Shown: positions 28,290-63,949, counted from the stretch's first letter. The stretch is 64,000 nucleotides of DNA from an uncultured virus (IMG/VR IMGVR_UViG_3300022555_003212) (IMGVR_UViG_3300022555_003212); one strand, 5' to 3'. Notes: generated from the letters alone by a model not told the origin. Numbers and translations: made by a program.

Positions 28290-28337
28290 AAAAGAATCCC
28301 CCAGTTGCACGAACTTGTGCGAGTTGGGGATTCTTTT
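28290..28337. terminator. bidirectional hairpin between convergent genes
   Basis: AAAAGAATCCCC...GCAC-gaactt-GTGC...GGGGATTCTTTT. Confidence 0.8.
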
Positions 28338-28525
28338 CATTTAGGCTTACTAAGTTCCTGTAGCTTCCGTTTACGCAACTCTGGGACAGTTATACATACG
28401 ACCTTACCGAAGCATAGTTTAGCACACTTATCATCCATCTCATGTGGAGCGCAATGGGCGCAACCTTGAGTGAAAACATCGAACTTATGCATGCAAGTAT
28501 TGTATGATTGGCATATACCTTTCAT
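28337..28525 (-). CDS. class B Cys/His mini-protein
   Basis: CAHCAPH; LRKRKLQEL. Confidence 0.8.
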   Translation of the reverse strand: MKGICQSYNTCMHKFDVFTQGCAHCAPHEMDDKCAKLCFGKVVCITVPELRKRKLQELSKPK

Positions 28526-28737
28526 AATGACTGGAGCTTATTAAGTTTATCCTTACGTATCTTGGATAGTGATACACAACAACACATAATACCGACCCGA
28601 AATACGCAGGCCCCATAATGATACATATTCTCATTATCTGGGTCATTGTATGCTGTATGAGGGTTGTGATGATCACATCGTCCGTTGTATGGGCATGTAT
28701 CATGTAACTCACACACTATCGTTATATGATTCCTCAT
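28522..28737 (-). CDS. class B Cys/His mini-protein
   Basis: CDHHNPH; IRKDKLNKL. Confidence 0.8.
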   Translation of the reverse strand: MRNHITIVCELHDTCPYNGRCDHHNPHTAYNDPDNENMYHYGACVFRVGIMCCCVSLSKIRKDKLNKLQSL

Positions 28738-28949
28738 AACCCAATCTCCTTAAGCTTAGCCATGTGCAGGGTTGATAGTGGTACAACCTTACACTGACAC
28801 ACCATGTTAGGGGTAAATAGATGTGGGCACTGACCTCTATGGTATGGCGGGAGGTAATCATACTCCTCCTCTAACCCCAATGCATGGGGTGCATGATGGG
28901 CACACTGTCTAATGACACAGGTACTGCTATGCTCACAGGCTACTAACAT
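28734..28949 (-). CDS. class B Cys/His mini-protein
   Basis: CAHHAPH; LHMAKLKEI. Confidence 0.75.
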   Translation of the reverse strand: MLVACEHSSTCVIRQCAHHAPHALGLEEEYDYLPPYHRGQCPHLFTPNMVCQCKVVPLSTLHMAKLKEIGL

Positions 28950-29155
28950 ATACCCATCTCCTTAAGCTTAGCTGTGCGTAGCGTATGTACAGGCACACAG
29001 GCGCACCATATACTCTCATGGAATAGCTGATCACGTAGCTGACACACACCATGACATGACTGGGGCTCCCCATCCTCTGGGTGGGCTACCTTATGATGCT
29101 TGCACACTGTCTTATCTATTGGGCATGTAGCTGCCAGCTCACACACTACTAACAT
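28943..29155 (-). CDS. class B Cys/His mini-protein
   Basis: MLVVCE..CKHHKVAH; LRTAKLKEM. Confidence 0.75.
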   Translation of the reverse strand: MLVVCELAATCPIDKTVCKHHKVAHPEDGEPQSCHGVCQLRDQLFHESIWCACVPVHTLRTAKLKEMGIC

Positions 29156-29332
29156 CTGCAATACGTTTAAGCTTAGCCATCCTTATATCTTTAGTGGACA
29201 TACATAGGTATGTACCGTCATGCTTACCGCAGTTGGATGAGCACTCACCACGGTAGCTGGTATGGGGGACAGCATACACTGGTCACCCCACTGGCAATCC
29301 CCTCCTGTATACATAGGGCTGATCGTTGGCAT
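29139..29332 (-). pseudogene. frameshifted class B Cys/His gene
   Basis: 194 nt; tail LCMSTKDIRMAKLKRI out of frame with ATG. Confidence 0.6.
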
Positions 29333-29669
29333 ATCAATAGCATAACACTCTCATATTCAAAGGTGATACATATATAACTTTTTGTATATCAAACATGACC
29401 TGTATCCCCATAGGAGGGCAGCCAAAAAAATTCCCTAAGGGCTGATGGACATATTGGGAAGCCAACATATGTCCATGAGTGCCATATGGGGACTCAGGGG
29501 CCATAGGGGGTACCCCCTCCTCTATAGGGGGGACAGGGGTCATAGATATGGAAAACGAAAAAAAGTTTTCCAGGTTTGAAAGGGTAAAATTGGTTTTTAA
29601 AATGTTTTGCATATGGCAAATTGAAAAATTTTTTTTGGTAAAAAATTCGGATTTTTCCATAGAAAATTT

Positions 29670-30008
29670 TTATCCAGTTCCAGTTAAAGGTTGTACTGGT
29701 TCCCAAAGAATATAATTTTTCGATAAGAGATCAGCCAATGGTTTATACTGGACATATTTCAGTTTATCCACTTTAATCAATTTAAGTTTCCTGATTAATT
29801 TATTGGGAATGATATAATATGGATTTTTGCATATATGAGATAACTGTTGATGGAGTTGTATTTCATTTCGGTATTTGACACAAGTGGCAACTATAAGAGC
29901 TTGGGCAGAATCCAAATCATTGTAATTTTCATCTACATGAAATACTGAATATAGTCCTGATATTGCAGGGTTAATTTGGTTCCATAAATCGTTCATATCG
30001 TGTTCCAT
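29670..30008 (-). CDS. class B protein (internal tag)
   Basis: IRKLKLIKV. Confidence 0.65.
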   Translation of the reverse strand: MEHDMNDLWNQINPAISGLYSVFHVDENYNDLDSAQALIVATCVKYRNEIQLHQQLSHICKNPYYIIPNKLIRKLKLIKVDKLKYVQYKPLADLLSKNYILWEPVQPLTGTG

Positions 30009-30053
30009 AATTATCAAAATGGTAAAGTGAAAAATTTTTTTTTGGTAAAAATT

Positions 30054-30353
30054 TTAGGATTTTTTATTTTGGATTTTTAATAGTTTAAGCATTCTTAATT
30101 CTTTTTCGGTATAGAAATGTGAATGAAATTGTTCCTCAGTAAAGAAGTCTGCTACGTCACCATATTCATCTATGCAAATTGAAATACAATTATCATTTAT
30201 GAAGAAATTATGGAGATCAAGATCGTAAGGCAAAATTGGATCATCAGGATATTCACTTTTAACACTATCCACAGTATACCAGATGTCTTTATAAAATGGG
30301 CCAGAATTTATATCCTTAAAGCAATAAACTTTATCTCCACGTTTTATATTCAT
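30054..30353 (-). CDS. class B GDxxYC family
   Basis: GDKVYC; FYTEKELRMLKL. Confidence 0.8.
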   Translation of the reverse strand: MNIKRGDKVYCFKDINSGPFYKDIWYTVDSVKSEYPDDPILPYDLDLHNFFINDNCISICIDEYGDVADFFTEEQFHSHFYTEKELRMLKLLKIQNKKS

Positions 30354-30532
30354 TTTTCTGTCAGACTATTTAATTTTTTCAGCTTCAATTGACGAACAGT
30401 AATGCATTTTGTGTTACGGTACAGTTTTGTACATTCGAGATTACATCCACGGTGGTAGTCATGTTCAAATCGATGGGAGCATTCAATGCAATATTCACTA
30501 TGTGTTAATTGCTCTTCACAAATGAGTTTCAT
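30350..30532 (-). CDS. class B Cys/His mini-protein
   Basis: CSHRFEH; VRQLKLKKL. Confidence 0.8.
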   Translation of the reverse strand: MKLICEEQLTHSEYCIECSHRFEHDYHRGCNLECTKLYRNTKCITVRQLKLKKLNSLTEK

Positions 30533-30792
30533 ATTCCAAGTTGTTTTAGTTTAGCTTTACGATATTCTTTTTCGGTATAGAAGTATTTTCCTATATACAG
30601 GCGGCTTTCTTTATTAGAGCAATTAAATGTTGATCCAAGCTGATGTCTAAATCCAATATTTGCAAATATCTGGCTTCTATTTCCAGTCATCGCATCATGG
30701 TACATTTCTATATGTAAGATAGGAACACGATCACCTATTTTCCATAATCCTTCAACATTTTGTTTAACGATTAAGATATCACCATCTTTCAT
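30529..30792 (-). CDS. class B GD family
   Basis: MKDGDIL; YRKAKLKQL. Confidence 0.8.
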   Translation of the reverse strand: MKDGDILIVKQNVEGLWKIGDRVPILHIEMYHDAMTGNRSQIFANIGFRHQLGSTFNCSNKESRLYIGKYFYTEKEYRKAKLKQLGI

Positions 30793-30793
30793 A

Positions 30794-31057
30794 TTATTGT
30801 ATTCCAAGTTGTTTCAGTTTAAGTTTTCTACATTCAGTAAGCGGCATGATATGTAATTTTTGAAATATTTCAGATTGCATTTCAACTTTAGTTATTCCCT
30901 GTCCAACTGTTTTACCATCTTTTGTAATTCTATACCATTCTGAATTATTAACAATTTCGATTAGGACAATATCACCAGCGATAAAGTGTTCTGATGTTTT
31001 AAAGCAGATATATTTTACTACATTTTGCATATGGCAAAATGGAAATGTTTTGGTCAT
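30794..31057 (-). CDS. class B protein, recent duplicate of 3' half of 31230
   Basis: KYICFKTSEHFIAGD; CRKLKLKQL. Confidence 0.8.
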   Translation of the reverse strand: MTKTFPFCHMQNVVKYICFKTSEHFIAGDIVLIEIVNNSEWYRITKDGKTVGQGITKVEMQSEIFQKLHIMPLTECRKLKLKQLGIQ

Positions 31058-31233
31058 ACAATTTTCTCCAGACGTTTTAATTTAAATTTACGGACGTTAT
31101 AACAATTTGCACTACCATTAACTTTTGAACAGGGGCAGCTATTACATTCTACTATTTTATCATGTTCCATTGTATGGTAGCAAAGTGGGTGATTACAGAC
31201 CCCAGTAATTTTATGTTCGCAGACAACCTTCAT
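31054..31233 (-). CDS. class B Cys/His mini-protein (59 aa, not in track)
   Basis: MKVVCEHKITGVCNHPLCYHTMEH...VRKFKLKRLEKIV. Confidence 0.8.
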   Translation of the reverse strand: MKVVCEHKITGVCNHPLCYHTMEHDKIVECNSCPCSKVNGSANCYNVRKFKLKRLEKIV

Positions 31234-31733
31234 ATTCCAAGTTGTTTTAGTTTCAGTCTACGGGATTCTTTCAGTGGCATGATATTTAGTTCTTGGAATA
31301 TTTCAGATTGCATTTCAACTTTGGTTATTCCAAGACCAATGGAAGCACATTTTATTGTTTTGCCATCTTTTGTAATTCTATACCAATTTGAATTATCAAC
31401 CACTTCAACAAAAACTATATCACCAGCGGTAAAATGTTGTGAAGTTTTAAAGCAGACATATTTGACCGCTTTCGATCTAAGTTTTTGAAGTTTTAATTTT
31501 CGCATTTCTTGGTTTGTATAAAAAACATCATAAAGATAATTTTGAGCAAATGTTTTCATAGTACAGAAGTGATATGGTACATCTTTAAATCTTACCCAAG
31601 TTTTAGAATCTCCATCGTGCCATATTTTATTTATGGTATAATACCTATTGAAATGTGGATCAACACGGTCATCATCCCAGTAACTTTTTTTACACAATAT
31701 TTTATCACCTACTTTATGTTCACAAATGCTCAT
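31230..31733 (-). CDS. class B two-unit fusion with two tags
   Basis: MRKLKLQKL internal and SRRLKLKQL terminal. Confidence 0.8.
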   Translation of the reverse strand: MSICEHKVGDKILCKKSYWDDDRVDPHFNRYYTINKIWHDGDSKTWVRFKDVPYHFCTMKTFAQNYLYDVFYTNQEMRKLKLQKLRSKAVKYVCFKTSQHFTAGDIVFVEVVDNSNWYRITKDGKTIKCASIGLGITKVEMQSEIFQELNIMPLKESRRLKLKQLGI

Positions 31734-31909
31734 ACAATTTTCTCCAGACGTTTTAATTTAAATTTACGGATGGTGATACATTTGGCATTGTTATCATCTG
31801 AATGACAGCATCCCAATGAGCAACTAAAGCTTTTATTATGCTCAACTGAATGATAGCATCTTGGGTTTCTACAAATGATAGTACCTTTAAGTTCACAGAT
31901 ATATTTCAT
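31730..31909 (-). CDS. class B Cys/His mini-protein (59 aa, not in track)
   Basis: MKYICELKGTIICRNPRCYHSVEH...IRKFKLKRLEKIV. Confidence 0.8.
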   Translation of the reverse strand: MKYICELKGTIICRNPRCYHSVEHNKSFSCSLGCCHSDDNNAKCITIRKFKLKRLEKIV

Positions 31910-32183
31910 TTATTCGATTAAGTTTCAATTTCCGTAATTGTGGTTCGGTATAGAAGTGTTCTTCAAATTCCTGTTTTTTTAGAAAGAAATAGTTTAATGA
32001 TGCGTCTGTGTATAATGTAATATAAAATATATTTGGATTGGCAGAACTGAATTTTTCAATATGTTCATTTCTGGGAGTATCATAAACTTTATAGTAACAA
32101 TTCTTTTTGAATATTAGTATATGATTATCGAATCCAGCAAAATAATCTTTAATACAATATACTTTACTACCGTGCAATATCAT
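31893..32183 (-). CDS. class B GxxVYC family
   Basis: LRKLKLNRI. Confidence 0.8.
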   Translation of the reverse strand: MILHGSKVYCIKDYFAGFDNHILIFKKNCYYKVYDTPRNEHIEKFSSANPNIFYITLYTDASLNYFFLKKQEFEEHFYTEPQLRKLKLNRINEIYL

Positions 32184-32416
32184 GCTCTTTCTCTTTTAAT
32201 AATATTCCAACCATATCCAAAATATTGTCTGCCACCCTTACACGAATCCATATACTCATGAAACTCATTTTTATAAGATTCCCAGACACGTGTTTCTGTA
32301 TAATATTCGAACCAGATTAAATCGCCATTAGTCATAATAGTTGGAAGATATGCATATTTTTTTACGGTTTCTTTAAATCCAACATTTTCTTTTCCTAATT
32401 TTCTTCCTATTTTCAT
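32180..32416 (-). CDS. untagged hypothetical phage protein
   Basis: YAYLP..G.LIWFEY; coupled to neighbours. Confidence 0.75.
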   Translation of the reverse strand: MKIGRKLGKENVGFKETVKKYAYLPTIMTNGDLIWFEYYTETRVWESYKNEFHEYMDSCKGGRQYFGYGWNIIKRERA

Positions 32417-32664
32417 AATCCCAATTGATTTAATTTCATTTTACGATATTCTTGAAGTGGTACAATATTAAGTTCTTTAAATTCTTCAGATTTGGAATAG
32501 AAATGGCTTATACCAAGGAGAATTATTTTTCCACGGCTTTCATGTTTTAGCCAGACCTGATTTTCGCTAAGGATTTTAACTGGTATAACATCTCCTTTTT
32601 TAAAGAATTCAGAATCTTTATAGCAAAAATAATCAACGGTTCCAGTGCCCATAGAATTTTTCAT
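32413..32664 (-). CDS. class B protein
   Basis: YFCYKDSEFFKKGD; YRKMKLNQL. Confidence 0.8.
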   Translation of the reverse strand: MKNSMGTGTVDYFCYKDSEFFKKGDVIPVKILSENQVWLKHESRGKIILLGISHFYSKSEEFKELNIVPLQEYRKMKLNQLGL

Positions 32665-32866
32665 ATTTTTTCGGTCCCAATTTCAATTTAAGCTCAAGTT
32701 CTTCCATTTTAACTTTTCTAACATCTATGCAACTTATTTTATCTCCATGAAATTGACAATATACATTGCATCTATTATCTTCCATTTCTTCATGACCTAT
32801 TGCATGAGGGCATTCTTTACGAACATTACAGCTATTATAGCTTGGGCATATTATCAGGTTTCCCAT
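32633..32866 (-). CDS. class B Cys/His mini-protein
   Basis: CPHAIGH; VRKVKMEEL. Confidence 0.8.
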   Translation of the reverse strand: MGNLIICPSYNSCNVRKECPHAIGHEEMEDNRCNVYCQFHGDKISCIDVRKVKMEELELKLKLGPKKYEKFYGHWNR

Positions 32867-32930
32867 AGTTGATTCAACTTCAGTTAATTGATTTAGTGAT
32901 TAGTATACTACCTTTATGTAATTTCATAAG

Positions 32931-32938
32931 CAAAGATA
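32931..32938 (-). promoter_or_regulatory. Bacteroidota-type -7 promoter
   Basis: TATCTTTG in intergenic gap. Confidence 0.55.
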
Positions 32939-32939
32939 G

Positions 32940-33212
32940 TTAAAGTTGATCAATTTTTTTCAATTTAATTTTACGGTATTCTGATAATGTATAGAAATAA
33001 TTCCATAGATACAAACTACTTTCTTTATCAGTACAATTAAATGCGAAATAATTTTCATCTGATAATTTTATTGTCACATATAGATCACCAGCCTGTGTTG
33101 AATCAAGAAGTTGAGCATGTCCAACGCTATAAACTGATAGTATTTCTTCAGGCTTGGATAATCCATCGGTTCCTTTAGCGACTAATAGGCTGCCTTTTTT
33201 TATTGAGTTCAT
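32940..33212 (-). CDS. class B protein
   Basis: YRKIKLKKI. Confidence 0.8.
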   Translation of the reverse strand: MNSIKKGSLLVAKGTDGLSKPEEILSVYSVGHAQLLDSTQAGDLYVTIKLSDENYFAFNCTDKESSLYLWNYFYTLSEYRKIKLKKIDQL

Positions 33213-33390
33213 TTTCCAATAATTGTTTCAATTTAAATTTTCTGGTACATATACATTTTACATTTTTAGACAGCACCATACACTGGGATTCTTCGCAACC
33301 AACGGAAAACGCTTCATGCTCAGTTTTATGGCGGCATGTTGTTTTAGTTTGGTTACACTCTTTATATTTTATACAGATGACTCTTTGCAT
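33175..33390 (-). CDS. class B Cys/His mini-protein
   Basis: CRHKTEH; TRKFKLKQL. Confidence 0.8.
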   Translation of the reverse strand: MQRVICIKYKECNQTKTTCRHKTEHEAFSVGCEESQCMVLSKNVKCICTRKFKLKQLLENELNKKRQPISR

Positions 33391-33559
33391 TTTTTGTTAA
33401 TTGTTTCAGTTTAAATTTTCTGGGGTTTACGCATTTTACAACTCTATTAGTACTGTTACAATGTTCATTACCACAAATATTCACAGGATCATGTTCAGTT
33501 TTATGGGGGCAATTATTTCTATTACAGTTTTTATATTTTGAGCAAATTACTTTTGGCAT
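33362..33559 (-). CDS. class B Cys/His mini-protein
   Basis: CPHKTEH; PRKFKLKQL. Confidence 0.8.
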   Translation of the reverse strand: MPKVICSKYKNCNRNNCPHKTEHDPVNICGNEHCNSTNRVVKCVNPRKFKLKQLTKNAKSHLYKI

Positions 33560-33731
33560 TTTTTTCCAATTTTTTCAATTTGAATTTTCTGGTACTTACG
33601 CAGCATACATTTTTACCAATCCAATTACAATGAGTTCCGATTGGGCCGCAAATAGAACCCATGGTGTCATGATCCGTTTTATGTCGGCATGCACCTGTAC
33701 ATGTTTTATATTTTACACAAATGACTGTCAT
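33531..33731 (-). CDS. class B Cys/His mini-protein
   Basis: CRHKTDH; TRKFKLKKL. Confidence 0.8.
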   Translation of the reverse strand: MTVICVKYKTCTGACRHKTDHDTMGSICGPIGTHCNWIGKNVCCVSTRKFKLKKLEKNAKSNLLKI

Positions 33732-33736
33732 TTTAG

Positions 33737-34327
33737 TTAGCGACCCAATTCATCAGCTACCCTCGGTTTTGGGTCAAGTTTATCATCAATTAATTTCAAT
33801 TTGAATTTTCTTTTTGATATTTCAGTTGGTGCATAATATAGTTCTGAGATATATTGTTTTTCGCTATATTTTCCTTTGGAATAATTAATTGAAACAAACA
33901 GGTTATAAAACGGTGCTGTTTTAAGTACATCAAAAAGATTTTTATTATGATAAGAGCTAACAACAATATGGTCATGATCTTCCCAAACTGCGTATCCACT
34001 GAATTCTTTGGTGTTCCATAAAAAATCGGCAAAATCGTCTGAGAAATAATCGTGGGTTCTTCCATCGAGGGATTTCCAAAGAAAATCTTGTATTTCTTTT
34101 GCGTGTCTTTGATATGGTTCTTCGTGTATCCAGACTCTGACGCTATTTCTATAGGTACCACTTATGTATAAATATTCGATGGGAATTGTTTTAGTAGCAT
34201 GTTCTATGAACATATGTATATCTTTTCTTGGAATATAGAAGTCATGGAAATTCCAGACGTTATTATAGGAGTAGCTGGATATTTTAAATTCGCTACAATC
34301 AACAGATAACCCATTTTTAAGTGTCAT
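33737..34327 (-). CDS. class B protein
   Basis: KRKFKLKLI. Confidence 0.8.
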   Translation of the reverse strand: MTLKNGLSVDCSEFKISSYSYNNVWNFHDFYIPRKDIHMFIEHATKTIPIEYLYISGTYRNSVRVWIHEEPYQRHAKEIQDFLWKSLDGRTHDYFSDDFADFLWNTKEFSGYAVWEDHDHIVVSSYHNKNLFDVLKTAPFYNLFVSINYSKGKYSEKQYISELYYAPTEISKRKFKLKLIDDKLDPKPRVADELGR

Positions 34328-34545
34328 ATTTTTTTTAATTTACTAAGTTTTTCTTTACGAATATCCTGAGCGAACATTGCTTCTATTTGAAGTTTCAATT
34401 TTTTCTGAGTTTCTGGGGTTAATCCCATCCACATGAAATTATCATCAATAAATTTTTTTACATCACCCTCACGAGGTTTAAACAAATGAAATGGTACATC
34501 GATTTCGATTTCATTCTTATTTATTGATATTATTGTGGTTGACAT
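34324..34545 (-). CDS. class B protein
   Basis: IRKEKLSKL. Confidence 0.8.
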   Translation of the reverse strand: MSTTIISINKNEIEIDVPFHLFKPREGDVKKFIDDNFMWMGLTPETQKKLKLQIEAMFAQDIRKEKLSKLKKI

Positions 34546-34769
34546 AATTTATTGATTTTCAGTCTTCTGAGTTCTGATTCTGTATAGAAATATTTTTTAA
34601 AATCTTTTTTAGTAAACAGGTGGAATTCATCGTATGATTTTTTTATACCTAATAATGAAACGTGGGATGTTGATCCATCAATGTTTTGGGTGCTGAATAC
34701 TTCATACCATTTATTTTTTTTAAAGACCATATAGCCTTTATAGCAATATACTTTATCATGTGGTTTCAC
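34530..34769 (-). CDS. class B DxVYC family
   Basis: LRRLKINKL. Confidence 0.8.
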   Translation of the reverse strand: MKPHDKVYCYKGYMVFKKNKWYEVFSTQNIDGSTSHVSLLGIKKSYDEFHLFTKKDFKKYFYTESELRRLKINKLCQPQ

Positions 34770-35014
34770 ATCAATTTTTTTAATTTTTCTTTTCTTTCTC
34801 GTTTAATGATATCGAAGTAATATTCAAATATTTCTCTTGGCATTCTGATATATCCGCCATAATAATCGACAACAACTTTGTATAATAATCCTTCTGGAGT
34901 TTGTTGAATTCTGTATGGATATATTTGTCCTACGGTAAAAGAGTTATTACCCCTTATACATTTAACTACTTTATTAGGGTTATTGGCAGTAATTACTTCA
35001 TCAATTTTCATCAT
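34766..35014 (-). CDS. class B C..FTVG..Y family
   Basis: ERKEKLKKL. Confidence 0.8.
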   Translation of the reverse strand: MMKIDEVITANNPNKVVKCIRGNNSFTVGQIYPYRIQQTPEGLLYKVVVDYYGGYIRMPREIFEYYFDIIKRERKEKLKKLM

Positions 35015-35229
35015 TTCATCAATTTTTTAATTTTAAGTTTTCTGACTTCTTGTTCGGTATAGAAGTATAAAACATATGCAACTGAGAACGTAGTCATCCA
35101 AATGGTACCGATTTTAAATCTCTTAAGATTGGCATTATAATCTAATATTTCATATGCATGACCTTTTTTAAAATGACAGGTATGCAATTTGAAATCACTT
35201 TTACAATATATTATATCACCTATTTTCAT
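35011..35229 (-). CDS. class B GDxxYC family
   Basis: VRKLKIKKL. Confidence 0.8.
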   Translation of the reverse strand: MKIGDIIYCKSDFKLHTCHFKKGHAYEILDYNANLKRFKIGTIWMTTFSVAYVLYFYTEQEVRKLKIKKLMK

Positions 35230-35452
35230 TAAGTTGTTTCAGTTTTTGTTTTCTGGTTTCTTTTATTGTACTGAAATGTTCTTCAAAGAATTCACTATAT
35301 GATGTCATCCAGAGGTCACCAATTAAGAATCTATCAAAAACCTTCTCATATTCTAACACAGCATACCACTGACCTTTTTCATAGGTATACACGCCATTTT
35401 CTATGTATTCGTGGCAATCTTTTTTACAGTATACGATATCACCTTTTTTCAT
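35216..35452 (-). CDS. class B GDxxYC family
   Basis: TRKQKLKQL. Confidence 0.8.
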   Translation of the reverse strand: MKKGDIVYCKKDCHEYIENGVYTYEKGQWYAVLEYEKVFDRFLIGDLWMTSYSEFFEEHFSTIKETRKQKLKQLNENR

Positions 35453-35696
35453 CGAGTTGTTTGAGTTTTAATTTTCTGGTTTCTTTTTCCGAATAGAAAA
35501 GTTCATAAAAGAATGTTGTGGTTGTTAATAACCAGAGTTCACAAATTTTAACTCTTTCATATTGCGGGTCATAATCGGTTACTGAATATGCTTTATCTTT
35601 TTCAAAAGTGAAGAATTTAGTTGGTCCTCCAATGGTAAAGAAATCAATAGCTTCTTGACAATCTTTTTTACAGTATAGTATATCACCTTTTTTCAT
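35439..35696 (-). CDS. class B GDxxYC family
   Basis: MKKGDILYC; TRKLKLKQL. Confidence 0.8.
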   Translation of the reverse strand: MKKGDILYCKKDCQEAIDFFTIGGPTKFFTFEKDKAYSVTDYDPQYERVKICELWLLTTTTFFYELFYSEKETRKLKLKQLDEKR

Positions 35697-35916
35697 CGAG
35701 TTTGGCAATTTTATTCAGTTTCAATTTTCGTATATCTTTAATGCTTGTTAAATAATCTATATGTATTAAATCATTCCAATCGCCATCTACTATTATTGGT
35801 TTATCCAATTTTGCTAATTTGAGGGTATGATCAATAAAAACAATTCTTCGCTTAAATGGTGTTGTCCAAATCCTATAATAGTTAGAATTTGGCTCAACCA
35901 TATCACCTATTTTCAT
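35683..35916 (-). CDS. class B GD family
   Basis: IRKLKLNKI. Confidence 0.8.
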   Translation of the reverse strand: MKIGDMVEPNSNYYRIWTTPFKRRIVFIDHTLKLAKLDKPIIVDGDWNDLIHIDYLTSIKDIRKLKLNKIAKLDEKR

Positions 35917-36112
35917 TGAGTTGTTTCATTTTAAGGTTTCTTGTTTCTTTAGTAGAAATGAAGTAATCACACCAGAAAGATTCAACTCTATCATTATCTG
36001 CAATAACATTGATATAAAAATCTGGGGTTCTTGGTATGTTGATAATTTCATTATCTTTTATTTCATGTTCAACCCATCCAGTGGTACTATGGAATGAGAA
36101 TGATAGGGCCAT
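35903..36112 (-). CDS. class B protein
   Basis: TRNLKMKQL. Confidence 0.7.
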   Translation of the reverse strand: MALSFSFHSTTGWVEHEIKDNEIINIPRTPDFYINVIADNDRVESFWCDYFISTKETRNLKMKQLNENR

Positions 36113-36540
36113 ACCAATAGTCCTTGAGTGTCGATTAGGTAGCCTATATAAACACCACCTAAAATTTTTTCCTGTTCTGTAAGTGTACCAGATATTTTTT
36201 TGAGTTTTAATTTTCTGGTAAGAATTTCACTACCGAATTTGATATAGTTATCAGTCCATTTTTGGTATGGATCAACAAACAGTTGAAGGTGACCTATATT
36301 ACCAAATGGGTATATCATTCCTTTATTTTGAAGCACGGCACCAACCTTTGGAGCGAACCCCATTAAATCCATCAGAACGGATGCTATATTACCATTTGTG
36401 ATGATACTGGTAGATTTCAGCTCATAAGCTTTTTTCATAACAGTGTCAAAGAAGGCACGTTGGACTGAATGGGTGGTATATCCGCCAGTTAAAAGGCTCG
36501 GATTATTAAGTAACTCATCCACACTAAATAGTACGTTCAT
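36058..36540 (-). CDS. gp23-like major capsid protein fragment with class B tag
   Basis: IITNGNIASVLMD..GF...IYPFGNIGHLQLFVDPYQKWTD; TRKLKLKKI. Confidence 0.55.
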   Translation of the reverse strand: MNVLFSVDELLNNPSLLTGGYTTHSVQRAFFDTVMKKAYELKSTSIITNGNIASVLMDLMGFAPKVGAVLQNKGMIYPFGNIGHLQLFVDPYQKWTDNYIKFGSEILTRKLKLKKISGTLTEQEKILGGVYIGYLIDTQGLLVWPYHSHSIVPLDGLNMK

Positions 36541-37008: not shown

Positions 37009-37010
37009 AG

Positions 37011-37292: not shown

Positions 37293-37294
37293 AG

Positions 37295-55575: not shown

Positions 55576-55595
55576 ATTTTATCTGTTCGATATTA

Positions 55596-56201
55596 TTATT
55601 CGGTTACTGCATCGTGTAGCATTCCCCTTAATTGTGTACGAATGATTGGCTCACCAATAATATCAATCTTAATTTTGAAATCTGAATATTCAGCTTTTGA
55701 AAGTGGCTTCAATTTTTTGTTATCTCTGCGGCTTCGACTGTCACTGGCTTCGTTTAGCCGTGTTATGATATGATTGATCATTTCATTGTTTTGTGCTTTT
55801 TCCTTTTCAGTTTTCTGGTGATCCCTGTTTTCCAGAAGGCAGTGAATGATTGTGTGATGATTGGCGCAAAACGTCTTTTCTGGGGATTGGATAATGGTAT
55901 CCATTTCCGTAAGGACCCTCACACAACCATCAACCATATCCCTGATAATGTTAATATTGGTTGTGATTATTCTTGCTTCTGTGATTGTTGGATTATTCGC
56001 AATTGCGGAAATCATTTTCTGACACTGAATAGATGATACTTCTTTTTCAGGAAAGAAATATGTGTGGGGATCATATTCAATTTCAATATCACCAGTTGAG
56101 TGATATGGTGCTACTAAGCACTTGATTATTTTTCCATACATCATCATTGATGTTTGTTCTTCTTCTTTTGATAAAGTGAACATTTCTTTTGGTAATTTCA
56201 T
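55596..56201 (-). CDS. untagged hypothetical protein
   Basis: 201 aa ORF; FPE...IITTN segment. Confidence 0.8.
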   Translation of the reverse strand: MKLPKEMFTLSKEEEQTSMMMYGKIIKCLVAPYHSTGDIEIEYDPHTYFFPEKEVSSIQCQKMISAIANNPTITEARIITTNINIIRDMVDGCVRVLTEMDTIIQSPEKTFCANHHTIIHCLLENRDHQKTEKEKAQNNEMINHIITRLNEASDSRSRRDNKKLKPLSKAEYSDFKIKIDIIGEPIIRTQLRGMLHDAVTE

Positions 56202-56205
56202 AATT

Positions 56206-56478
56206 TTAAGATTTAAGATTTAATTTACTAAGTTTGGCTTTACGTTGTATTTTTAGAGCTTCAAAAACTCCAGTATATTTATTATTAAATTCGGTATAAG
56301 TTTCACTGTTATTAAAAAATAAAGTACCACCCGTATCTGTAAATATCCAGCAGACCTCATTTGTATCGTCATCTGGGGCTTCGGTTATTTCATGTATTGA
56401 ATATATTTTGTTTTTTGTAAGTTCTTTATATCCACCACCAATCCAACGAACTTTATCACCAACTTTAAATATCCCCAT
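56206..56478 (-). CDS. class B FKxGD..W family
   Basis: QRKAKLSKL. Confidence 0.8.
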   Translation of the reverse strand: MGIFKVGDKVRWIGGGYKELTKNKIYSIHEITEAPDDDTNEVCWIFTDTGGTLFFNNSETYTEFNNKYTGVFEALKIQRKAKLSKLNLKS

Positions 56479-56752
56479 TTTTTAATCGATTGAGTTTTGC
56501 TTTTCGTTCTAATCTTTTGCATTCAAAACAATAATCATAATGTCGTATTGTTATATCATATGTTGACTGGCTTATTAAAATTCTATCTTCTCCGAAATCA
56601 TCTTTTATCCAGCAAACACCGCTTGGATGAGCATCAGAAATTATATATTCTTTCCCTATAGTAAAGTTCGTATGAACATCCATAGTCCTTTTTTTCCAAA
56701 TTATTTTATCCCCTGTTCTAAAAACGTTTATATTTTTTGTCATGTCGATCAT
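56465..56752 (-). CDS. class B FxxGD..W family
   Basis: ERKAKLNRL. Confidence 0.8.
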   Translation of the reverse strand: MIDMTKNINVFRTGDKIIWKKRTMDVHTNFTIGKEYIISDAHPSGVCWIKDDFGEDRILISQSTYDITIRHYDYCFECKRLERKAKLNRLKNGDI

Positions 56753-56997
56753 TACATATCAAACTTAATTGCAACTTTATTTGCAAAATATGCCAATATT
56801 TTCCGATCTCTTGGGTTTTTAGAAAATCTAAACCCCATCCATCGTGACTCGGTTTCAACCAATCTAAATATTTGTATTACTCCACGATTATCAACCATAT
56901 CAATAGTGTACCCTTTACCAATATCCAAGTCTTTCTCAACACCATTATTGTCGATGCAATAAACTCTATCCCCAACTTTATACAGTTTCTTTTTCAT
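56752..56997 (-). CDS. GDxVYC family protein with FDM tail inside class B operon
   Basis: ends RDRKILAYFANKVAIKFDM. Confidence 0.8.
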   Translation of the reverse strand: MKKKLYKVGDRVYCIDNNGVEKDLDIGKGYTIDMVDNRGVIQIFRLVETESRWMGFRFSKNPRDRKILAYFANKVAIKFDM

Positions 56998-57265
56998 TTA
57001 ATTTTTCAAGTTTAGCTAATCTTGTTATTCGCTTACAATCAAAGTATGTATGATGTACCATGACGGCATGGGAGGCAGTTGTATAAACTTGATCAAACTT
57101 TTTGAAATCACCCTCATCATTTTCAATCATACAACACCTATTTTCTATTCTGAAGATAATATAAGATTTATCGATAGTTAATCTTTTATCTCTTGCTATA
57201 TGAGAATTCTTCCAAATTAACCTATCCCCTACTTTATAAATACCCAAATCATTATATTCATCCAT
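56978..57265 (-). CDS. class B YKxGD..W family
   Basis: TRLAKLEKL. Confidence 0.8.
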   Translation of the reverse strand: MDEYNDLGIYKVGDRLIWKNSHIARDKRLTIDKSYIIFRIENRCCMIENDEGDFKKFDQVYTTASHAVMVHHTYFDCKRITRLAKLEKLNEKETV

Positions 57266-61831: not shown

Positions 61832-61879
61832 AAAAAATAAAATGAATATAGTAATTATATTACTATTTAATGGTAAAGT

Positions 61880-62065
61880 TTATTCTACCTCACGAATTTT
61901 ATTTAGTTTATCTTTTCGTAGTTCAGCGGGTAACAAATTTCGTATAGTACAATTACCTATATCGCATTTAAAAACTGGATCATTCCAATGTAGATGCTGT
62001 TTTTTGCGCCAGCATTTAACTGTACAATCTTTATAATTTTCACAAATGAATAAATATTTATCCAT
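61880..62065 (-). CDS. class B Cys/His mini-protein
   Basis: LRKDKLNKI. Confidence 0.8.
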   Translation of the reverse strand: MDKYLFICENYKDCTVKCWRKKQHLHWNDPVFKCDIGNCTIRNLLPAELRKDKLNKIREVE

Positions 62066-62417
62066 TATCCCTGAATAATTTTTTAAGCTTCATTGATCGT
62101 TCCATCCGTATATTTCTGAATCTGCGTTTGTCAAACCACCCGCCAGTGTATCCGATCATTATATGCTGGTCTGATATTGCGGTAACAGTATATTCATGTT
62201 TTTCTTTCAATGACGGAGAAAATGAACTTGATGTACCTTCATAACAAATTTTGGAGAATATTTCTCTGTCTTTCACGGAAAATGATCGATATTCACCGTC
62301 ATCACACATGACCCAACAAGTATATCCCTCAATCTTAACTATACTGTATGCCTTTCCAACGGTAAAGTATGGTTTTGGGGCTTTAATGCATTTAATTCTA
62401 TCTTTTGTGTTGTACAT
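62058..62417 (-). CDS. class B C..FTVGKxY..DDG family
   Basis: ERSMKLKKL. Confidence 0.8.
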   Translation of the reverse strand: MYNTKDRIKCIKAPKPYFTVGKAYSIVKIEGYTCWVMCDDGEYRSFSVKDREIFSKICYEGTSSSFSPSLKEKHEYTVTAISDQHIMIGYTGGWFDKRRFRNIRMERSMKLKKLFRDNG

Positions 62418-62640
62418 TATTTTTTATTCGTTTAAGTTTTTCTATTCGTGTAATATCTTTAAAATGAAACAATGCCTTATTAAGATTAACTTCTGAAAAG
62501 TGTATAATAACCCCAGAATCGTCAAGAAAGTAATAAATTCCTTTATCAATTTTTGTGATAATATACATCCTACCAACAGTTATTCTGTGTTGATCTTTTA
62601 TAGGCTTGATATATTTTATTACTGACCCAACCGTGAACAT
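62398..62640 (-). CDS. class B ITVGxxY..DDxG family
   Basis: TRIEKLKRI. Confidence 0.8.
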   Translation of the reverse strand: MFTVGSVIKYIKPIKDQHRITVGRMYIITKIDKGIYYFLDDSGVIIHFSEVNLNKALFHFKDITRIEKLKRIKNNVQHKR

Positions 62641-62876
62641 ATTTTTTTAAGTTTTTCTCTTCTTGTTGTTTTAACACATTCAAAATATTTATCAACATTA
62701 TCGAATTGAACTGCCCTTTTTTGTCCATCATCAGCAATCGCCCAATATGCGCCAGAATGAATATCTACAATCGGATATAGTCTATTTAATGATGTTAGAT
62801 AATTAGGTCCATCGTCCATATCTAAGTATACACATCTTAAAACATCTCCAACTTTATATTTTGGTACAGGAGTCAT
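62619..62876 (-). CDS. class B GDxxxC family
   Basis: TRREKLKKI. Confidence 0.8.
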   Translation of the reverse strand: MTPVPKYKVGDVLRCVYLDMDDGPNYLTSLNRLYPIVDIHSGAYWAIADDGQKRAVQFDNVDKYFECVKTTRREKLKKICSRLGQ

Positions 62877-63144
62877 TTAGCATTTTTAATTTTAATTTTC
62901 TGATTCCATTTTTTGAACAATCAAAATAATTATAGATATTCGGCAAATTCTTTTTTCCGCCCACCGTGGTAAATCTTTGAGATGAACGATGATCACCTAA
63001 TATTGTATAATAAGTTTCTTTCCACCCTTTATACCACGTAAACACTTCATAAACTTCACCTTTTGTAAAATGTGGATATGACCATGATCGTTTGAGTGAT
63101 TTTTTACAAAGCAGCACTTTTGTATTTAATGGGTTCATTTCCAT
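62854..63144 (-). CDS. class B LCKK..FTKG family
   Basis: IRKLKLKML. Confidence 0.8.
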   Translation of the reverse strand: MEMNPLNTKVLLCKKSLKRSWSYPHFTKGEVYEVFTWYKGWKETYYTILGDHRSSQRFTTVGGKKNLPNIYNYFDCSKNGIRKLKLKMLNDSCTKI

Positions 63145-63311
63145 ATTTGCCTGAGTTTTTTCTTACGATCATTACGAACTTCTTGAGCATTAGATATCTT
63201 TCTTGCTGAATCTTTGAGTTTTTCATACTGCTGTTCACTTAGAACCATATATCCATTCTTATTTGTTTTTAAATCAAATACCTGAATATTATAAACTTTT
63301 TTAGGACCCAT
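63135..63311 (-). CDS. class B small protein (58 aa, not in track)
   Basis: MGPKKVY...DRKKKLRQI. Confidence 0.7.
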   Translation of the reverse strand: MGPKKVYNIQVFDLKTNKNGYMVLSEQQYEKLKDSARKISNAQEVRNDRKKKLRQIWK

Positions 63312-63645
63312 TATGTGTTATTTTTTTAAGTTTCATTTTCCGTATAGCGACATCAGTTTCAAACCACAGGCAAATACCACAACCATCGATTAGATCATGC
63401 TCTTGATTGAAGTTGTCCGTAATAAAAGCAGTCCATCCGACAACATTCCTTGCTTTATAAAGTTGCTTTGGAAAAACACGATATTTTTTACCTACCGTAT
63501 GACGTGGTCCGACATCTTTATCAAATGTTCCACCAATCCGATCATTCATAAAGTTAGCCCTAATACAAACCAATTGTTTAATTTTACCTTCTATAATAAG
63601 ATTAATCAACTCATGATCTCTCACTTGAATTTCACTTTCTTTCAT
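63301..63645 (-). CDS. class B C..TVGKKY family
   Basis: IRKMKLKKI. Confidence 0.8.
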   Translation of the reverse strand: MKESEIQVRDHELINLIIEGKIKQLVCIRANFMNDRIGGTFDKDVGPRHTVGKKYRVFPKQLYKARNVVGWTAFITDNFNQEHDLIDGCGICLWFETDVAIRKMKLKKITHNGS

Positions 63646-63949
63646 CTAATTTTTTAAGCTTATCCTTTCTTAAACGTATTATGACACCTTTCATAAACGT
63701 GTAAATTTCGCCAACATATTTTTGCTCAGCCATATCATAGTTATCTGGTAAGTTGTCTACAAAATGGATAAAATGTTTATAAACAACTTCATGATCTTTT
63801 ATCCCATATCGGCAATAAATATCCAGCATAACTGGTAAATACCCGCTGTTTTTCAAATCTAATTTAATATGCCTTATTCTTTCTGCTGTGGTTATAATAG
63901 GGGTTGTGTTCAAATGATCATCGCAAGGAAAGCTATATGTAACAATCAA
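63632..63949 (-). CDS. class B protein
   Basis: LRKDKLKKL. Confidence 0.75.
   Translation of the reverse strand: MIVTYSFPCDDHLNTTPIITTAERIRHIKLDLKNSGYLPVMLDIYCRYGIKDHEVVYKHFIHFVDNLPDNYDMAEQKYVGEIYTFMKGVIIRLRKDKLKKLDERK

What the first reader, a model, noticed from the sequence alone, without database searches (positions are those of the whole stretch)
28337..63949. Second tag system: about 95 small genes with a near-terminal R-K-x-K-L-x-x-[L/I] helix
Seen: nearly every minus-strand ORF from 28.3-57.3 kb and 61.9-64 kb carries the motif. Bodies include GDxxYC beta-rich proteins, Cys/His mini-proteins, Zn ribbons, 2-TM membrane proteins (39691, 48620, 54399), a capsid fragment and a SprB-like repeat. 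Outliers 6860, 20474 and 25217 carry it too. None of the array genes has the Glu N-tag, and TAnnTTTG boxes occur in the array (32931, 43362, 51467; variant 57320). Unlike FDL, the motif need not be terminal: residues after it vary and it can be internal (29670, 31230, 36058, 47134). It survives complete recoding in the GC-richer patch (RTAKLKE, RMAKLKR using AAG CTT), so selection is on the peptide. Inference: a second shared docking or localisation signal for early proteins, for example for membrane, nucleic acid, a chaperone/protease or a phage compartment.
Basis: partly seen in the sequence, partly recalled or inferred. Interest (0 to 1): 0.85.

Follow-up and report, generated by a model that had tools for sequence, protein, structure and literature searches.

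The report
Shared C-terminal helix tag, phage proteins
About a hundred small, otherwise unrelated genes of a very large uncultured phage all end in the same short basic helix (Arg-Lys-x-Lys-Leu-x-x-Leu/Ile), which behaves like a portable address label whose reader is still unknown.

Summary
91 of 105 minus-strand ORFs in 28.3-57.3 kb and 61.9-64 kb carry the motif, against 3.4 expected after shuffling. Selection is on the peptide: Arg uses all six codons, Leu all six, and codon use matches the background. The motif is a portable module, not the tail of one family. It follows SH3/KOW-like barrels, Cys/His mini-domains, membrane proteins and a conserved 200-aa protein, whose more distant homologues lack it. 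In a related 330-kb contig it also follows a Tad3 anti-Thoeris domain. That contig comes from a T4-like phage of about 700 kb, and 92 of its 600 ORFs bear the tag. Tag-less relatives have almost no tagged neighbours. Tagged operons tend to have host-type TAnnTTTG boxes. A second tag family (MITKFKLFE...FDL) tends to have a different, late-like box. My best reading, which is inferred, is a shared docking helix that ties diverse early proteins to one common cytoplasmic partner. A membrane anchor and a nucleotide-level signal are disfavoured.

The parts
28337..57265 (-). Tag2 array A: about 98 tightly packed small ORFs, with 91 motif instances
61880..64000 (-). Tag2 array B: 8 motif instances; the last ORF runs off the window
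39974..39997 (-). Example tag RKLKLKKL in class A gene 39944-40210. In the model it is helix 68-82, after an SH3/KOW-like barrel
39944..40210 (-). Class A example: 'MKKGDxIYCKK...FYTxxE' beta barrel plus tag. It heads alignment A3 (19 window sequences plus 58 metagenome homologues); A1 holds 20 window class A members
33362..33559 (-). Class B example: Cys/His mini-protein (C6 C12 C17 H19 H23 C29 C34 C43 conserved) plus tag RKFKLKQL at 33398-33421. 20 window members are in alignment A4
39691..39972 (-). Membrane protein with two hydrophobic segments and tag RAEKLKRL at 39712-39735
48620..49135 (-). Membrane protein with two hydrophobic segments and tag RKLKLDKI at 48626-48649
54399..54842 (-). 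Membrane protein with tag RKYKLKKL at 54405-54428. A look-alike with the same N-terminus and the tag lies in L011 at 13775-14227
38331..38936 (-). Conserved 201-aa protein ('P201'): helices, a KOW-like barrel at 47-96, an unstructured stretch at 159-186 and tag helix 187-198 (RKRKIKKI at 38343-38366). More distant homologues lack the tag
31230..31733 (-). Fusion of two tagged units: an internal tag at 31479-31502 and a terminal tag at 31239-31262
28337..29332 (-). GC-richer patch with recoded tags at 28743-28766, 28955-28978 and 29160-29183
43362..43369 (-). TATATTTG box 16 nt before the ATG of 42996-43346, in an intergenic gap: a host-type promoter-like site for a sub-operon
32931..32938 (-). 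TATCTTTG box in the gap upstream of 32633-32866
6872..6895 (-). Outlier tag RIEKLKRI in ORF 6860-7360
20489..20512 (-). Outlier tag RREKLQKL in ORF 20474-20926, next to the ankyrin gene 20928-21734
26828..26851 (+). Tag-like RIQKLQQI at the end of the LAGLIDADG endonuclease 25217-26866; this may be a chance match
52786..53766 (-). Untagged 326-aa ORF inside the array. It has no Pfam or PHROG family and no tblastn match in G001
522..19018 (.). Context, the other tag system (Tag1): ORFs that start like MITKFKLFE and end in [RQ]FDL. More lie at 57377-58769 (+), 59790-61759 (-) and 43393-43977 (+)

Best explanation
Tag2 is a portable peptide module of about 12-15 residues, [ST]-x-x-[ED]-[LIV]-R-K-x-K-L-x-x-[LI], predicted to be a helix. 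A clade of very large T4-like phages, probably of Bacteroidota, adds it to the C-terminal end of about 15% of their proteins.

The few residues after the motif (mode 4) are a by-product of the overlap with the next gene.

The bodies are unrelated: SH3/KOW-like barrels, Cys/His mini-domains that probably bind two zinc ions, Zn ribbons, membrane proteins, a conserved 200-aa protein and, in a relative, a Tad3 anti-Thoeris domain.

Most likely the tag is a common docking handle. Each body supplies its own target or activity, and the tag connects all of them to one shared partner on the cytoplasmic side of the infected cell. That partner would be a protein with an acidic and hydrophobic groove, or a polyanion.

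Shown: the excess over chance, the peptide-level constraint, the modularity, and the restriction to one clade together with genome-wide use.

Inferred: the helix, early expression, the cytoplasmic side, and the docking itself.
For: Excess over chance:
- 91 of 105 array ORFs carry the motif against 3.4 +/- 1.8 in shuffles.
- There are 70 exact matches, on the coding strand only.

Peptide-level constraint:
- Arg at position 1 uses AGA 55, CGT 19, CGA 14, CGC 4, AGG 4, CGG 2. Leu at position 5 uses all six codons.
- Codon use in the motif matches the rest of the array genes: Lys AAA 0.88 against 0.86, p=0.39; Leu p=0.08 and 0.52; Ile p=0.64. Arg is marginal at p=0.02.

Modularity:
- Bodies cluster into many unrelated groups; 71 of 81 BLAST clusters are singletons.
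- Class A is an SH3/KOW-like barrel over residues 1-68, followed by helix 68-82.
- Class B has 6 Cys and 2 His conserved.
- Of the 120 best homologues of the 201-aa protein, 90 end in the tag. The other 30 stop just before it or have another tail.
- In the model of that protein the tag helix follows 28 residues without secondary structure.
- Among its 90 tagged homologues, the segment before the tag is variable (consensus frequency 0.1-0.7), while R, K and K are at 0.9 or more and the x positions at 0.4.
- With a profile of class A bodies from which the tag was cut off, 128 of the best 150 of 395 hits still end in the tag.
- A Tad3 domain (117.7 bits, cut-off 27) and a DUF6794 domain carry the tag in G001.

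Genome-wide use within one clade:
- G001 has 92 of 600 ORFs tagged, against 1.5 +/- 1.2 in shuffles.
- Loci whose 201-aa homologue is tagged have 16 of 303 tagged neighbours. Loci with an untagged homologue have 5 of 2227.

Not tied to the next gene:
- 18 of 99 tags have the next called start more than 50 nt away.
- A solitary tagged gene in L001 is followed by a gene on the other strand.

Cytoplasmic side: membrane-protein bearers have the tag on a long basic tail after the last hydrophobic segment. The side is inferred from the positive-inside rule.

Early type: in G001, among ORFs with at least 35 nt of non-coding DNA upstream, Tag2 ORFs have TAnnTTTG in 6 of 19 and the T-tract+ATATA box in 2 of 19. 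Tag1 ORFs have 1 of 16 and 10 of 16.
Against: - No reader was found, and nothing here shows binding.
- The restriction to one clade is confounded by relatedness. All tagged records belong to one group of about 700-kb phages, and many contigs are near-duplicates.
- The 'tag-less' label of 20 records rests on 20-kb loci only, not on the whole records.
- In class A and class B the tag follows the last strand or the last Cys directly, without a linker. There the helix could pack on its own body.
- The tag has low amphipathicity, which fits a nucleic-acid-binding basic helix as well as a protein-docking one.
- Many bodies (KOW/SH3-like, Zn fingers, Zn ribbons) are of kinds that often bind nucleic acids.
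- The promoter evidence is a motif count with small numbers. In the window itself it is not significant: Tag2 2 of 9 and 1 of 9; Tag1 2 of 14 and 4 of 14.
- Gene calls are my own longest-ORF calls, not those of a gene finder.
Confidence: 0.5

Rival explanations
1. The tag is a nucleic-acid tether. It would be a non-specific DNA- or RNA-binding basic helix that holds small early proteins, many with nucleic-acid-type folds, on phage or host DNA, RNA or ribosomes. Strictly this is a special case of docking, with a polyanion as the reader.
For: - Net charge is +3.2 over 11 residues, mean hydrophobicity -0.50 and helical moment only 0.19.
- Bodies include KOW/SH3-like barrels, Cys/His mini-domains and Zn ribbons.
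- The weak Foldseek rows (none at E <= 0.001) include chains of ribosome structures beside SH3 and Tudor domains. That some ribosomal proteins combine an SH3-like barrel with a basic C-terminal helix is recalled, not read from the call.
- An expansion of about 35 Zn-ribbon proteins in Bacillus phage G has been suggested to be transcription factors or structural DNA binders (PMC7824862, passage seen).
Against: - The near-invariant Leu at position 5 and Leu/Ile at position 8, and the single fixed Arg, are not what a generic phosphate binder needs.
- Lys-rich rather than Arg-rich helices are poor specific RNA binders (my own knowledge).
- Membrane proteins and a Tad3 domain, which binds the ThsB protein (PMC13728456, passages seen), also carry the tag.
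- Bodies are on average neutral, with mean net charge 0.07.
Confidence: 0.2
2. The tag is a capsid-targeting or ejection label. Like the T4 capsid targeting sequence, it would load diverse anti-defence proteins into the head for co-injection, for example by copying a scaffold-like coat-binding helix.
For: - T-even internal proteins are a diverse set of defence-countering proteins that share only the capsid targeting sequence (PMC3012670, passage seen).
- One tagged protein is a Tad3 anti-defence domain.
- There are weak hits to phrog_14592 'virion structural protein' for 56465-56752 and 62058-62417.
- The phage is T4-like: gp32, UvsW_N, PolB and topoisomerase II families are present.
Against: - Membrane proteins carry the tag.
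- Tagged operons tend to have host-type boxes rather than the box of the other family.
- The same genomes already hold a better candidate for a capsid targeting sequence: Tag1, an N-terminal M-K-x-L-K-x-F-E on 105 of 600 ORFs of G001. The two tags are almost mutually exclusive, with 1 of 193 and 3 of 600 ORFs carrying both.
- The tag is C-terminal and is not followed by a clear protease site.
Confidence: 0.08
3. The tag is a degron or adaptor tail. It would be read by an unfoldase, protease or chaperone of host or phage. It would either time the removal of early proteins or make the bearers adaptors that deliver their bound targets, in the manner of SspB-type tails.
For: - The architecture is a binding domain plus a short basic and hydrophobic C-terminal peptide. 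In the 201-aa protein the tag follows an unstructured stretch.
- A bearer holds a domain of the Tad3 family; Tad3 binds the host defence protein ThsB.
- A phage Hsp70 (E 5e-200) lies in a tag-rich region of G001 and is also found in G002. It is absent from all 20 tag-less records searched.
Against: - The Hsp70 co-occurrence is confounded by clade and genome size, and 6 small tagged fragments lack it.
- No DnaJ or GrpE was found in 5 tagged records.
- Conservation follows helical spacing (positions 1, 2, 4, 5, 8), not the contiguous extended core that Hsp70 binds (my own knowledge).
- The tail after the motif varies from 1 to 82 residues. This does not fit degrons that need the free C-terminus.
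Confidence: 0.1
4. The tag is a membrane-targeting amphipathic helix that brings soluble early proteins to the inner membrane.
For: It is basic and Leu-containing, and anionic membranes attract such helices.
Against: - The helical hydrophobic moment is 0.19 and mean hydrophobicity -0.50. 0 of 99 tags lie above the surface-seeking line; the line itself is recalled.
- Arg and Lys sit between the Leu residues on the helical wheel.
- Integral membrane proteins carry the tag too.
- The single-residue invariance is stricter than known membrane-targeting sequences need.
Confidence: 0.03
5. The conserved unit is at the nucleotide or translation level. The 24 nt in front of the next start codon would act as an initiation enhancer, coupling signal or repressor site, or the nascent peptide would tune termination and re-initiation.
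For: - The next gene's start lies within -2 to +8 nt of the motif end in 62 of 99 cases, with a mode of +1 nt in 22.
- The motif DNA is A-rich.
Against: - Arg switches between AGA and CGN, and Leu between TTR and CTN, at background frequencies.
- In 18 of 99 cases the next called start is more than 50 nt away.
- Internal tags exist, as does a solitary tagged gene with no co-directional neighbour.
- The tag is kept in phages of 22% and 30% GC.
- The tail length varies, so the distance to the stop codon is not fixed.
Confidence: 0.02
6. There is no shared partner. The helix would be a self-contained structural cap or oligomerisation element, inherited by descent in one fast-diverging superfamily.
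For: - Class A and class B share an N-terminal strand ending in Cys, 'MK..(I/V)(Y/I)C'.
- The tag follows the last strand directly in these classes.
- Class A nearly always has it, 128 of 150.
Against: - The 201-aa family has members with and without the tag.
- The tag is fused to a Tad3 domain and a DUF6794 domain.
- It occurs on membrane proteins.
- The same five residues are kept on different folds.
Confidence: 0.05

Closest known systems
Capsid targeting sequence (CTS) of phage T4 internal proteins IPI-III (PMC3012670, passage; bioRxiv 10.1101/2021.01.19.427310, passage)
   Same: A short peptide is the only thing shared by a diverse, fast-changing set of small phage proteins, several of which counter host defence. 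The phage background is T4-like.
   Different: - The CTS is N-terminal, about 10 residues, and is cut off by the head protease on late, packaged proteins.
- Tag2 is C-terminal and helical.
- It also sits on membrane proteins.
- It is associated with host-type promoter boxes.
- It co-exists with a separate CTS-like N-terminal tag (Tag1) in the same genomes.
Encapsulin cargo-loading peptides (recalled, no call)
   Same: A short C-terminal peptide directs unrelated cargo proteins to one protein shell.
   Different: No encapsulin or other shell family was found among the window ORFs scanned with Pfam. The motif is different and basic, and about 100 bearers is far more than any known cargo set.
SspB-type adaptor tails that bind the ClpX N-domain (recalled, no call)
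   Same: A binding domain is followed by a short basic and hydrophobic C-terminal peptide that plugs into a common machine.
   Different: That is one adaptor per cell, not a hundred. The motif is not the same, and binding to any unfoldase is untested.
Poxvirus ankyrin/PRANC (F-box-like) families (recalled, no call)
   Same: A virus multigene family has variable binding bodies and one conserved C-terminal docking motif for a host hub.
   Different: It is a eukaryotic system with one body type (ankyrin). Here the bodies are unrelated. The ankyrin proteins of these phages carry Tag1, not Tag2.
Membrane-targeting sequences of MinD/FtsA (recalled, no call)
   Same: A short basic C-terminal helix on soluble proteins.
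   Different: Those are strongly amphipathic and loosely conserved. Tag2 has a low hydrophobic moment and fixed residues.
Lineage-specific expansion of about 35 Zn-ribbon proteins in Bacillus phage G (PMC7824862, passage)
   Same: A large expansion of small Zn-binding proteins in a very large phage.
   Different: It is one fold, and no shared portable tag is reported in the passage I saw.

Membership tests
T4-type capsid targeting sequence | The tag lies at the N-terminus, within the first 10 residues or so | tested here: not met
   Tag2 lies 1-9 residues from the C-terminus in 88 of 99 cases.
T4-type capsid targeting sequence | Unrelated bodies share only the tag | tested here: met
T4-type capsid targeting sequence | Bearers are late proteins packaged in the head, and the tag is removed by the head protease | not testable with these tools
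   There is only an indirect hint against this: host-type boxes on Tag2 operons and membrane-protein bearers.
Encapsulin cargo-loading peptide | A shell (encapsulin) gene lies next to the cargo genes | tested here: not met
   No such Pfam family was found among 71 + 106 window ORFs. The rest of the genome was not available.
Membrane-targeting amphipathic helix (MinD/FtsA type) | High helical hydrophobic moment with a clean hydrophobic face | tested here: not met
   Mean moment 0.19, mean hydrophobicity -0.50, and 0 of 99 tags above the recalled surface-seeking line.
SspB-type unfoldase-binding tail | Binds the N-domain of ClpX or another unfoldase | not tested
   The host is unknown and no unfoldase was available.
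SH3/KOW-like small beta barrel (body of class A and of the 201-aa protein) | Five-stranded barrel superposable on known SH3, Tudor or KOW domains | tested here: inconclusive
   - Class A: VIA-align Z 6.5 (RecD2 SH3, rmsd 2.0, 57 aligned) and Z 5.0 (NusG KOW).
- The 201-aa protein: Z 6.6 (NusG KOW, rmsd 1.5, 45 aligned).
- Foldseek gave no match at E <= 0.001.
- Z under 8 may reflect only a common arrangement.
Tad3 (PF25185, Thoeris inhibitor), for the tagged G001 protein L017:16930-17514 | Score above Pfam's gathering cut-off over most of the profile | tested here: met
   117.7 bits against a cut-off of 27; profile positions 1-117 of 119, residues 2-125 of 194. The function was not tested.

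The most novel reading that the evidence does not exclude
These roughly 700-kb phages run a proteome-scale two-label sorting system. Tag1 is an N-terminal M-K-x-L-K-x-F-E together with a C-terminal F-[DN]-[LI]. It is associated with late-type boxes and marks proteins for the capsid and for injection. Tag2, the basic C-terminal helix with host-type boxes, routes about 15% of the proteome to a second destination. That set consists of early takeover and anti-defence modules. The destination would be a so far undescribed phage-encoded hub or compartment in the infected cell. Together the two labels cover 140 of 193 ORFs in this window and 194 of 600 in a related contig.
Probability: 0.25. Interest if true: 0.9.

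Novelty: new variant of a known kind. Interest (0 to 1): 0.8.

Why it matters
Phage genomes are full of small early proteins of unknown function. Here a hundred of them per genome declare by a common label that they belong to one process, which makes them tractable as a set. At least one bearer holds a known anti-defence domain (Tad3), so the tagged set is a ready-made candidate list for new counter-defence and host-takeover modules. It would also provide a portable tag for engineering.

Tried and rejected
- **Known families for the array proteins.** Pfam found none for the 106 array ORFs beyond weak sub-threshold hits. PHROGs gave only scattered unknown-function hits.
- **Megablast against phages.** 20 kb of the array against 50,697 phage records: no match.
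- **tblastn against phages.** The 201-aa protein and a class A protein against the same records: no match. No cultured relative could therefore be named.
- **The window's own genome.** None is held, so the rest of this phage could not be searched for a reader.
- **Bacterial and archaeal genomes.** A scan of genome contigs with class A found no relative, so there is no prophage and no host link.
- **Candidate readers by co-occurrence.**
  - Hsp70 is in 2 of 8 tagged and 0 of 20 tag-less records.
  - Ankyrin repeats are in 7 of 8 and 0 of 20.
  - Both are confounded by clade.
- **Untagged ORFs inside the array as readers.** 52786, 55596 and 43393 have no match in G001 at 1e-5.
- **Co-folding two copies of a class A protein, to test tag-mediated pairing.** The tool gave no verdict (score 0.07, mark 0.42). 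This says nothing either way.
- **ESM Atlas search for the 201-aa protein.** It returned only unnamed viral clusters.
- **Literature.** Full-text searches for the motif strings, and for shared tags or expansions in jumbo or huge phages, found nothing on this motif. Only those searches back the statement that it is not in print.
- **Earlier notes of this scan.** There are none for this genome or this sequence.

Full report
**What is there**

The window has about 30% GC and no tRNA genes. It is packed with small ORFs. On the minus strand, 28337-57265 and 61880-64000 hold about 105 ORFs that abut or overlap. I called genes with my own greedy longest-ORF procedure, so start codons may be over-extended.

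91 of these 105 ORFs contain [RH]x.K[LIFM]..[LIVM] and 71 contain R[KR].K[LI]..[LI]. Shuffling residues within each protein 1000 times gave 3.4 +/- 1.8 and 0.19 +/- 0.44.

It never occurs in the plus frames there and occurs twice in the other 28 kb.

I listed 99 instances, 91 + 8. The extended logo is [YH]-F-x-[TS]-x-[KSQ]-[ED]-[LIV]-R-K-x-K-L-x-x-[LI]. R/H at position 1, K at position 4 and the aliphatic residue at position 5 were demanded by the regex that chose the instances.

**Peptide, not nucleotide**

Arg at position 1 is written with all six Arg codons and Leu at position 5 with all six Leu codons. Codon frequencies inside the motif match those of the remaining codons of the array genes. 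Lys AAA is 0.88 against 0.86 (p=0.39). Leu gives p=0.08 and 0.52, and Ile p=0.64. Arg is marginal at p=0.02, with fewer AGG.

In the GC-richer patch at 28.3-29.3 kb the tag survives in different codons.

The stretch after the motif is 1-9 residues in 88 of 99 cases, with a mode of 4. The next gene's start lies within -2 to +8 nt of the motif end in 62 of 99 cases. In class A neighbours the upstream stop codon falls inside the next gene's conserved Gly-Asp codons. The tail is therefore an overlap by-product, and the functional protein effectively ends with the motif.

The motif does not depend on a downstream gene. 18 of 99 tags have the next called start more than 50 nt away. Four genes have internal tags. 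A solitary tagged gene in locus L001 is followed by a gene on the other strand.

**Bodies**

After removing the tag, BLAST groups the 105 bodies into 81 clusters, of which 71 are singletons. This test is insensitive for such short proteins. Reading the sequences shows the following classes.

- **Class A.** It reads 'MKKGDxIYCKK ... G.WY.V ... FYTxxE' plus the tag. 20 window members are aligned in A1. An AlphaFold2 model built on 77 sequences (pLDDT 83) has four strands, a short helix, a fifth strand and helix 68-82, which is the tag. Foldseek gave nothing at E <= 0.001. VIA-align gave SH3, Tudor and KOW domains at Z 5-6.5, covering residues 1-68. I read this as a small barrel with the helix as an appendage; the fold assignment is only tentative.
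- **Class B.** These are 60-85-aa proteins with C6, C12, C17, H19, H23, C29, C34 and C43 conserved, followed by the tag. A4 holds 20 window members and 2 from L011.
- **Other bodies.**
  - Zn ribbons.
  - Three proteins with hydrophobic segments: 39691, 48620 and 54399.
  - Larger proteins: 33737, 36058, 38331 and 44969.

Pfam and PHROGs name none of the array proteins.

**Relatives**

A profile of class A found 90 metagenomic proteins, all unnamed and all ending in the tag. That profile included the tag, so the result is biased.

With a profile built from bodies with the tag cut off, 395 cluster representatives of 1.84 billion scored E <= 0.001. 128 of the best 150 end in the tag. The other 22 include:
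- truncated proteins;
- multi-domain proteins;
- a few with a variant tail, W-R-[DE]-x-Q-[IL]-x-x-[IL].

IMG/VR loci with class A genes come from contigs of 49-330 kb with 21-24% GC (L001, a 13.8-kb contig, is the exception at 28%). They hold arrays of tagged genes, again with other bodies: a membrane protein, Cys/His minis and a look-alike of 54399.

CheckV completeness of these records implies genomes of about 700 kb: 46% for 330 kb and 36% for 256 kb.

I fetched the 330-kb record G001 whole. Of 600 ORFs, 92 have the tag within 15 residues of the C-terminus, against 1.5 +/- 1.2 in shuffles.

Its larger proteins show a T4-like core: gp32, UvsW_N, a split family B polymerase, topoisomerase II and PhoH. 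It also has Hsp70, peptidase M3, NAD salvage genes, Tad4, Acb3, PARG, ankyrins and a Cas3-like helicase.

No relative was found in 185,579 bacterial and archaeal genomes or in 50,697 deposited phage records.

**Modularity**

Three independent lines show that the tag is a portable module.

1. *The 201-aa protein at 38331-38936.*
   - It has 422 homologues. Of the best 120, 90 end in '...VKVELDTIKDIRKxKLxKI'. The other 30 stop at '...KVEIDK' or carry another tail.
   - The G001 orthologue is 53% identical and keeps the tag.
   - Among the 90 tagged members, the 12 residues before '...VKVELD' are poorly conserved (0.1-0.7). R, K and K of the tag are at 0.9 or more, and the x positions at 0.4.
   - In the model, 28 residues without secondary structure precede the tag helix 187-198. 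The only fold match is a KOW-like barrel at residues 47-96, Z 6.6.
2. *Known domains with the tag in G001.* A Tad3 domain (117.7 bits) with a 70-residue extension ends in the tag, and a DUF6794 domain also carries it. Tad3 is reported to bind the ThsB protein of Thoeris (PMC13728456, passages seen).
3. *Membrane proteins.* They carry the tag at the end of a long basic tail after the last hydrophobic segment.

**One clade, genome-wide**

I used 70 of the 80 loci fetched with the 201-aa family.
- I dropped L037-L041 and L086 as near-identical to L036, and L079 as a duplicate of L076.
- I dropped L105, L106 and L110 as edge fragments.
- Two more loci gave no ORF call.

In the 8 loci with a tagged homologue, 16 of 303 neighbouring ORFs are tagged. 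In the 60 loci with an untagged homologue, 5 of 2227 are.

These loci are related and partly redundant, so the Mann-Whitney p of 1e-11 overstates the evidence. The pattern is nevertheless clear. The tag is either used across a genome or not at all, which is what a label with a genome-encoded or lineage-specific reader would look like.

**A second label and timing**

The left part of the window and 57.4-61.8 kb hold the other family. 53 of 193 ORFs end in F-[DN]-[LI], and 32 of these start like M-I-T-K-F-K-L-F-E. No Tag2 ORF has that start, and one ORF (2544) has both tags.

In G001, 105 of 600 ORFs end in [YF]-[ND]-[ILV], mostly after an M-K-Y-[LI]-K-x-[FY]-E start. All 11 ankyrin ORFs are among them.

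This N-terminus resembles the T4 capsid targeting sequence as printed in bioRxiv 10.1101/2021.01.19.427310.

Among G001 ORFs with at least 35 nt of non-coding DNA upstream:
- Tag1 ORFs have a 'T-tract + ATATA' box in 10 of 16 and TAnnTTTG in 1 of 16.
- Tag2 ORFs have 2 of 19 and 6 of 19.
- Other ORFs have 38 and 40 of 177.

In the window the numbers are too small to tell: Tag1 4 and 2 of 14, Tag2 1 and 2 of 9. That TAnnTTTG is the Bacteroidota housekeeping -7 element is my own knowledge. The inference that Tag2 genes are early and host-transcribed, and Tag1 genes late, is therefore tentative.

**How it most likely works**

The conserved positions (1, 2, 4, 5, 8 and the aliphatic residue before the motif) follow helical spacing. 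The x positions fall on the other side of the helix.

The segment is very basic (+3.2) and hardly amphipathic, with a moment of 0.19. None of the 99 tags lies above the surface-seeking line, which is recalled. This argues against a membrane anchor. It fits a helix gripped by a groove or by a polyanion.

Diverse binding-type bodies plus one fixed handle is the logic of the T4 internal proteins (PMC3012670). It is also the logic of adaptor tails and of viral F-box-like families (both recalled). I therefore read Tag2 as a common docking handle on the cytoplasmic side.

Hsp70 and ankyrins co-occur with the tag, but this is confounded by clade, and the ankyrins carry Tag1. The rivals are weighed in their own section.

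**Comparison and novelty**

No search of the paper library found this motif.

Earlier notes of this scan describe other shared tags on small proteins of uncultured phages. One is an F-K-F-[F/L] end tag in a 316-kb lake phage, which looks like the Tag1 start seen here. These are unchecked leads from the same kind of reader, not independent support.

Tag2 is a new label of a known general kind, namely a short shared peptide on diverse phage proteins. It differs from the T4 precedent in four ways:
- its position;
- its predicted structure;
- its likely timing;
- its scale, about 15% of ORFs, beside a second label on a further 17%.

Noticed in passing
window 522-19018, 22544-23167, 43393-43977, 57377-58769, 59790-61759: This is the other tag system (Tag1).
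- 53 of 193 ORFs end in F-[DN]-[LI], and 32 of them begin like M-I-T-K-F-K-L-F-E.
- In G001, 105 of 600 ORFs end in K-[FY]-N-[IL] after an M-K-Y-[LI]-K-x-[FY]-E start, including all 11 ankyrin ORFs.
- The start resembles the T4 capsid targeting sequence.
- Operon-first genes tend to have a T-tract+ATATA box.
- Together the two tags mark 140 of 193 ORFs of this window.
   Followed up: partly
window 28337-29660: This patch has GC 0.40 against about 0.30 elsewhere. Its Cys/His proteins carry tags written in other codons and with Met or Thr at position 2. It looks like a recent import from a GC-richer relative.
   Followed up: partly
window tags at 42033, 45458, 49163, 35941, 28557, 29183: Tags lie in short frames (17-40 codons open upstream), or in frames overlapping another ORF, just downstream of ORFs that look like the matching body. 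An example is 45551-45670 followed by the tag at 45458. These may be broken genes, frameshifts or sequencing errors.
   Followed up: partly
window 5354, 8433, 15467 (+) and 11838 (-): The codons for x-R-F-D of Tag1 spell TAGATTTG, a match to TAnnTTTG, 5 nt before the next gene's ATG. This could be coincidence or an embedded promoter for leaderless transcripts. It is not conserved in G001, where the ending is K-F-N-L.
   Followed up: no
window 17303-17761, 25217-26866, 20928-21734: An HNH endonuclease, a 549-aa LAGLIDADG endonuclease ending in a tag-like RIQKLQQI, and an ankyrin-repeat protein. Ank_2 matches occur in 7 of 8 tagged records and in 0 of 20 tag-less relatives.
   Followed up: partly
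L002 15187-16358 (G001 about 198.0-199.2 kb): An array of at least 16 direct repeats with a 66-nt period lies next to a Cas3-like HD-helicase, L023:9291-11564. This looks like a phage-borne CRISPR-Cas locus directly after a class A tag array.
   Followed up: partly
G001 (L013-L030): The record holds a phage Hsp70 (E 5e-200), found only in the two largest tagged records of the 28 searched. No DnaJ or GrpE was found in 5 tagged records. It also holds the anti-defence families Tad3, Tad4 and Acb3, as well as NAPRTase, NAD synthase, PARG and seven DUF7487 proteins.
   Followed up: partly
proteins P0242, P0267, P0343, P0345: Some class A homologues end in a variant tail, W-R-[DE]-x-Q-[IL]-x-x-[IL], instead of R-K-x-K-L-x-x-[LI]. 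It may be a diverged tag for a diverged reader.
   Followed up: no
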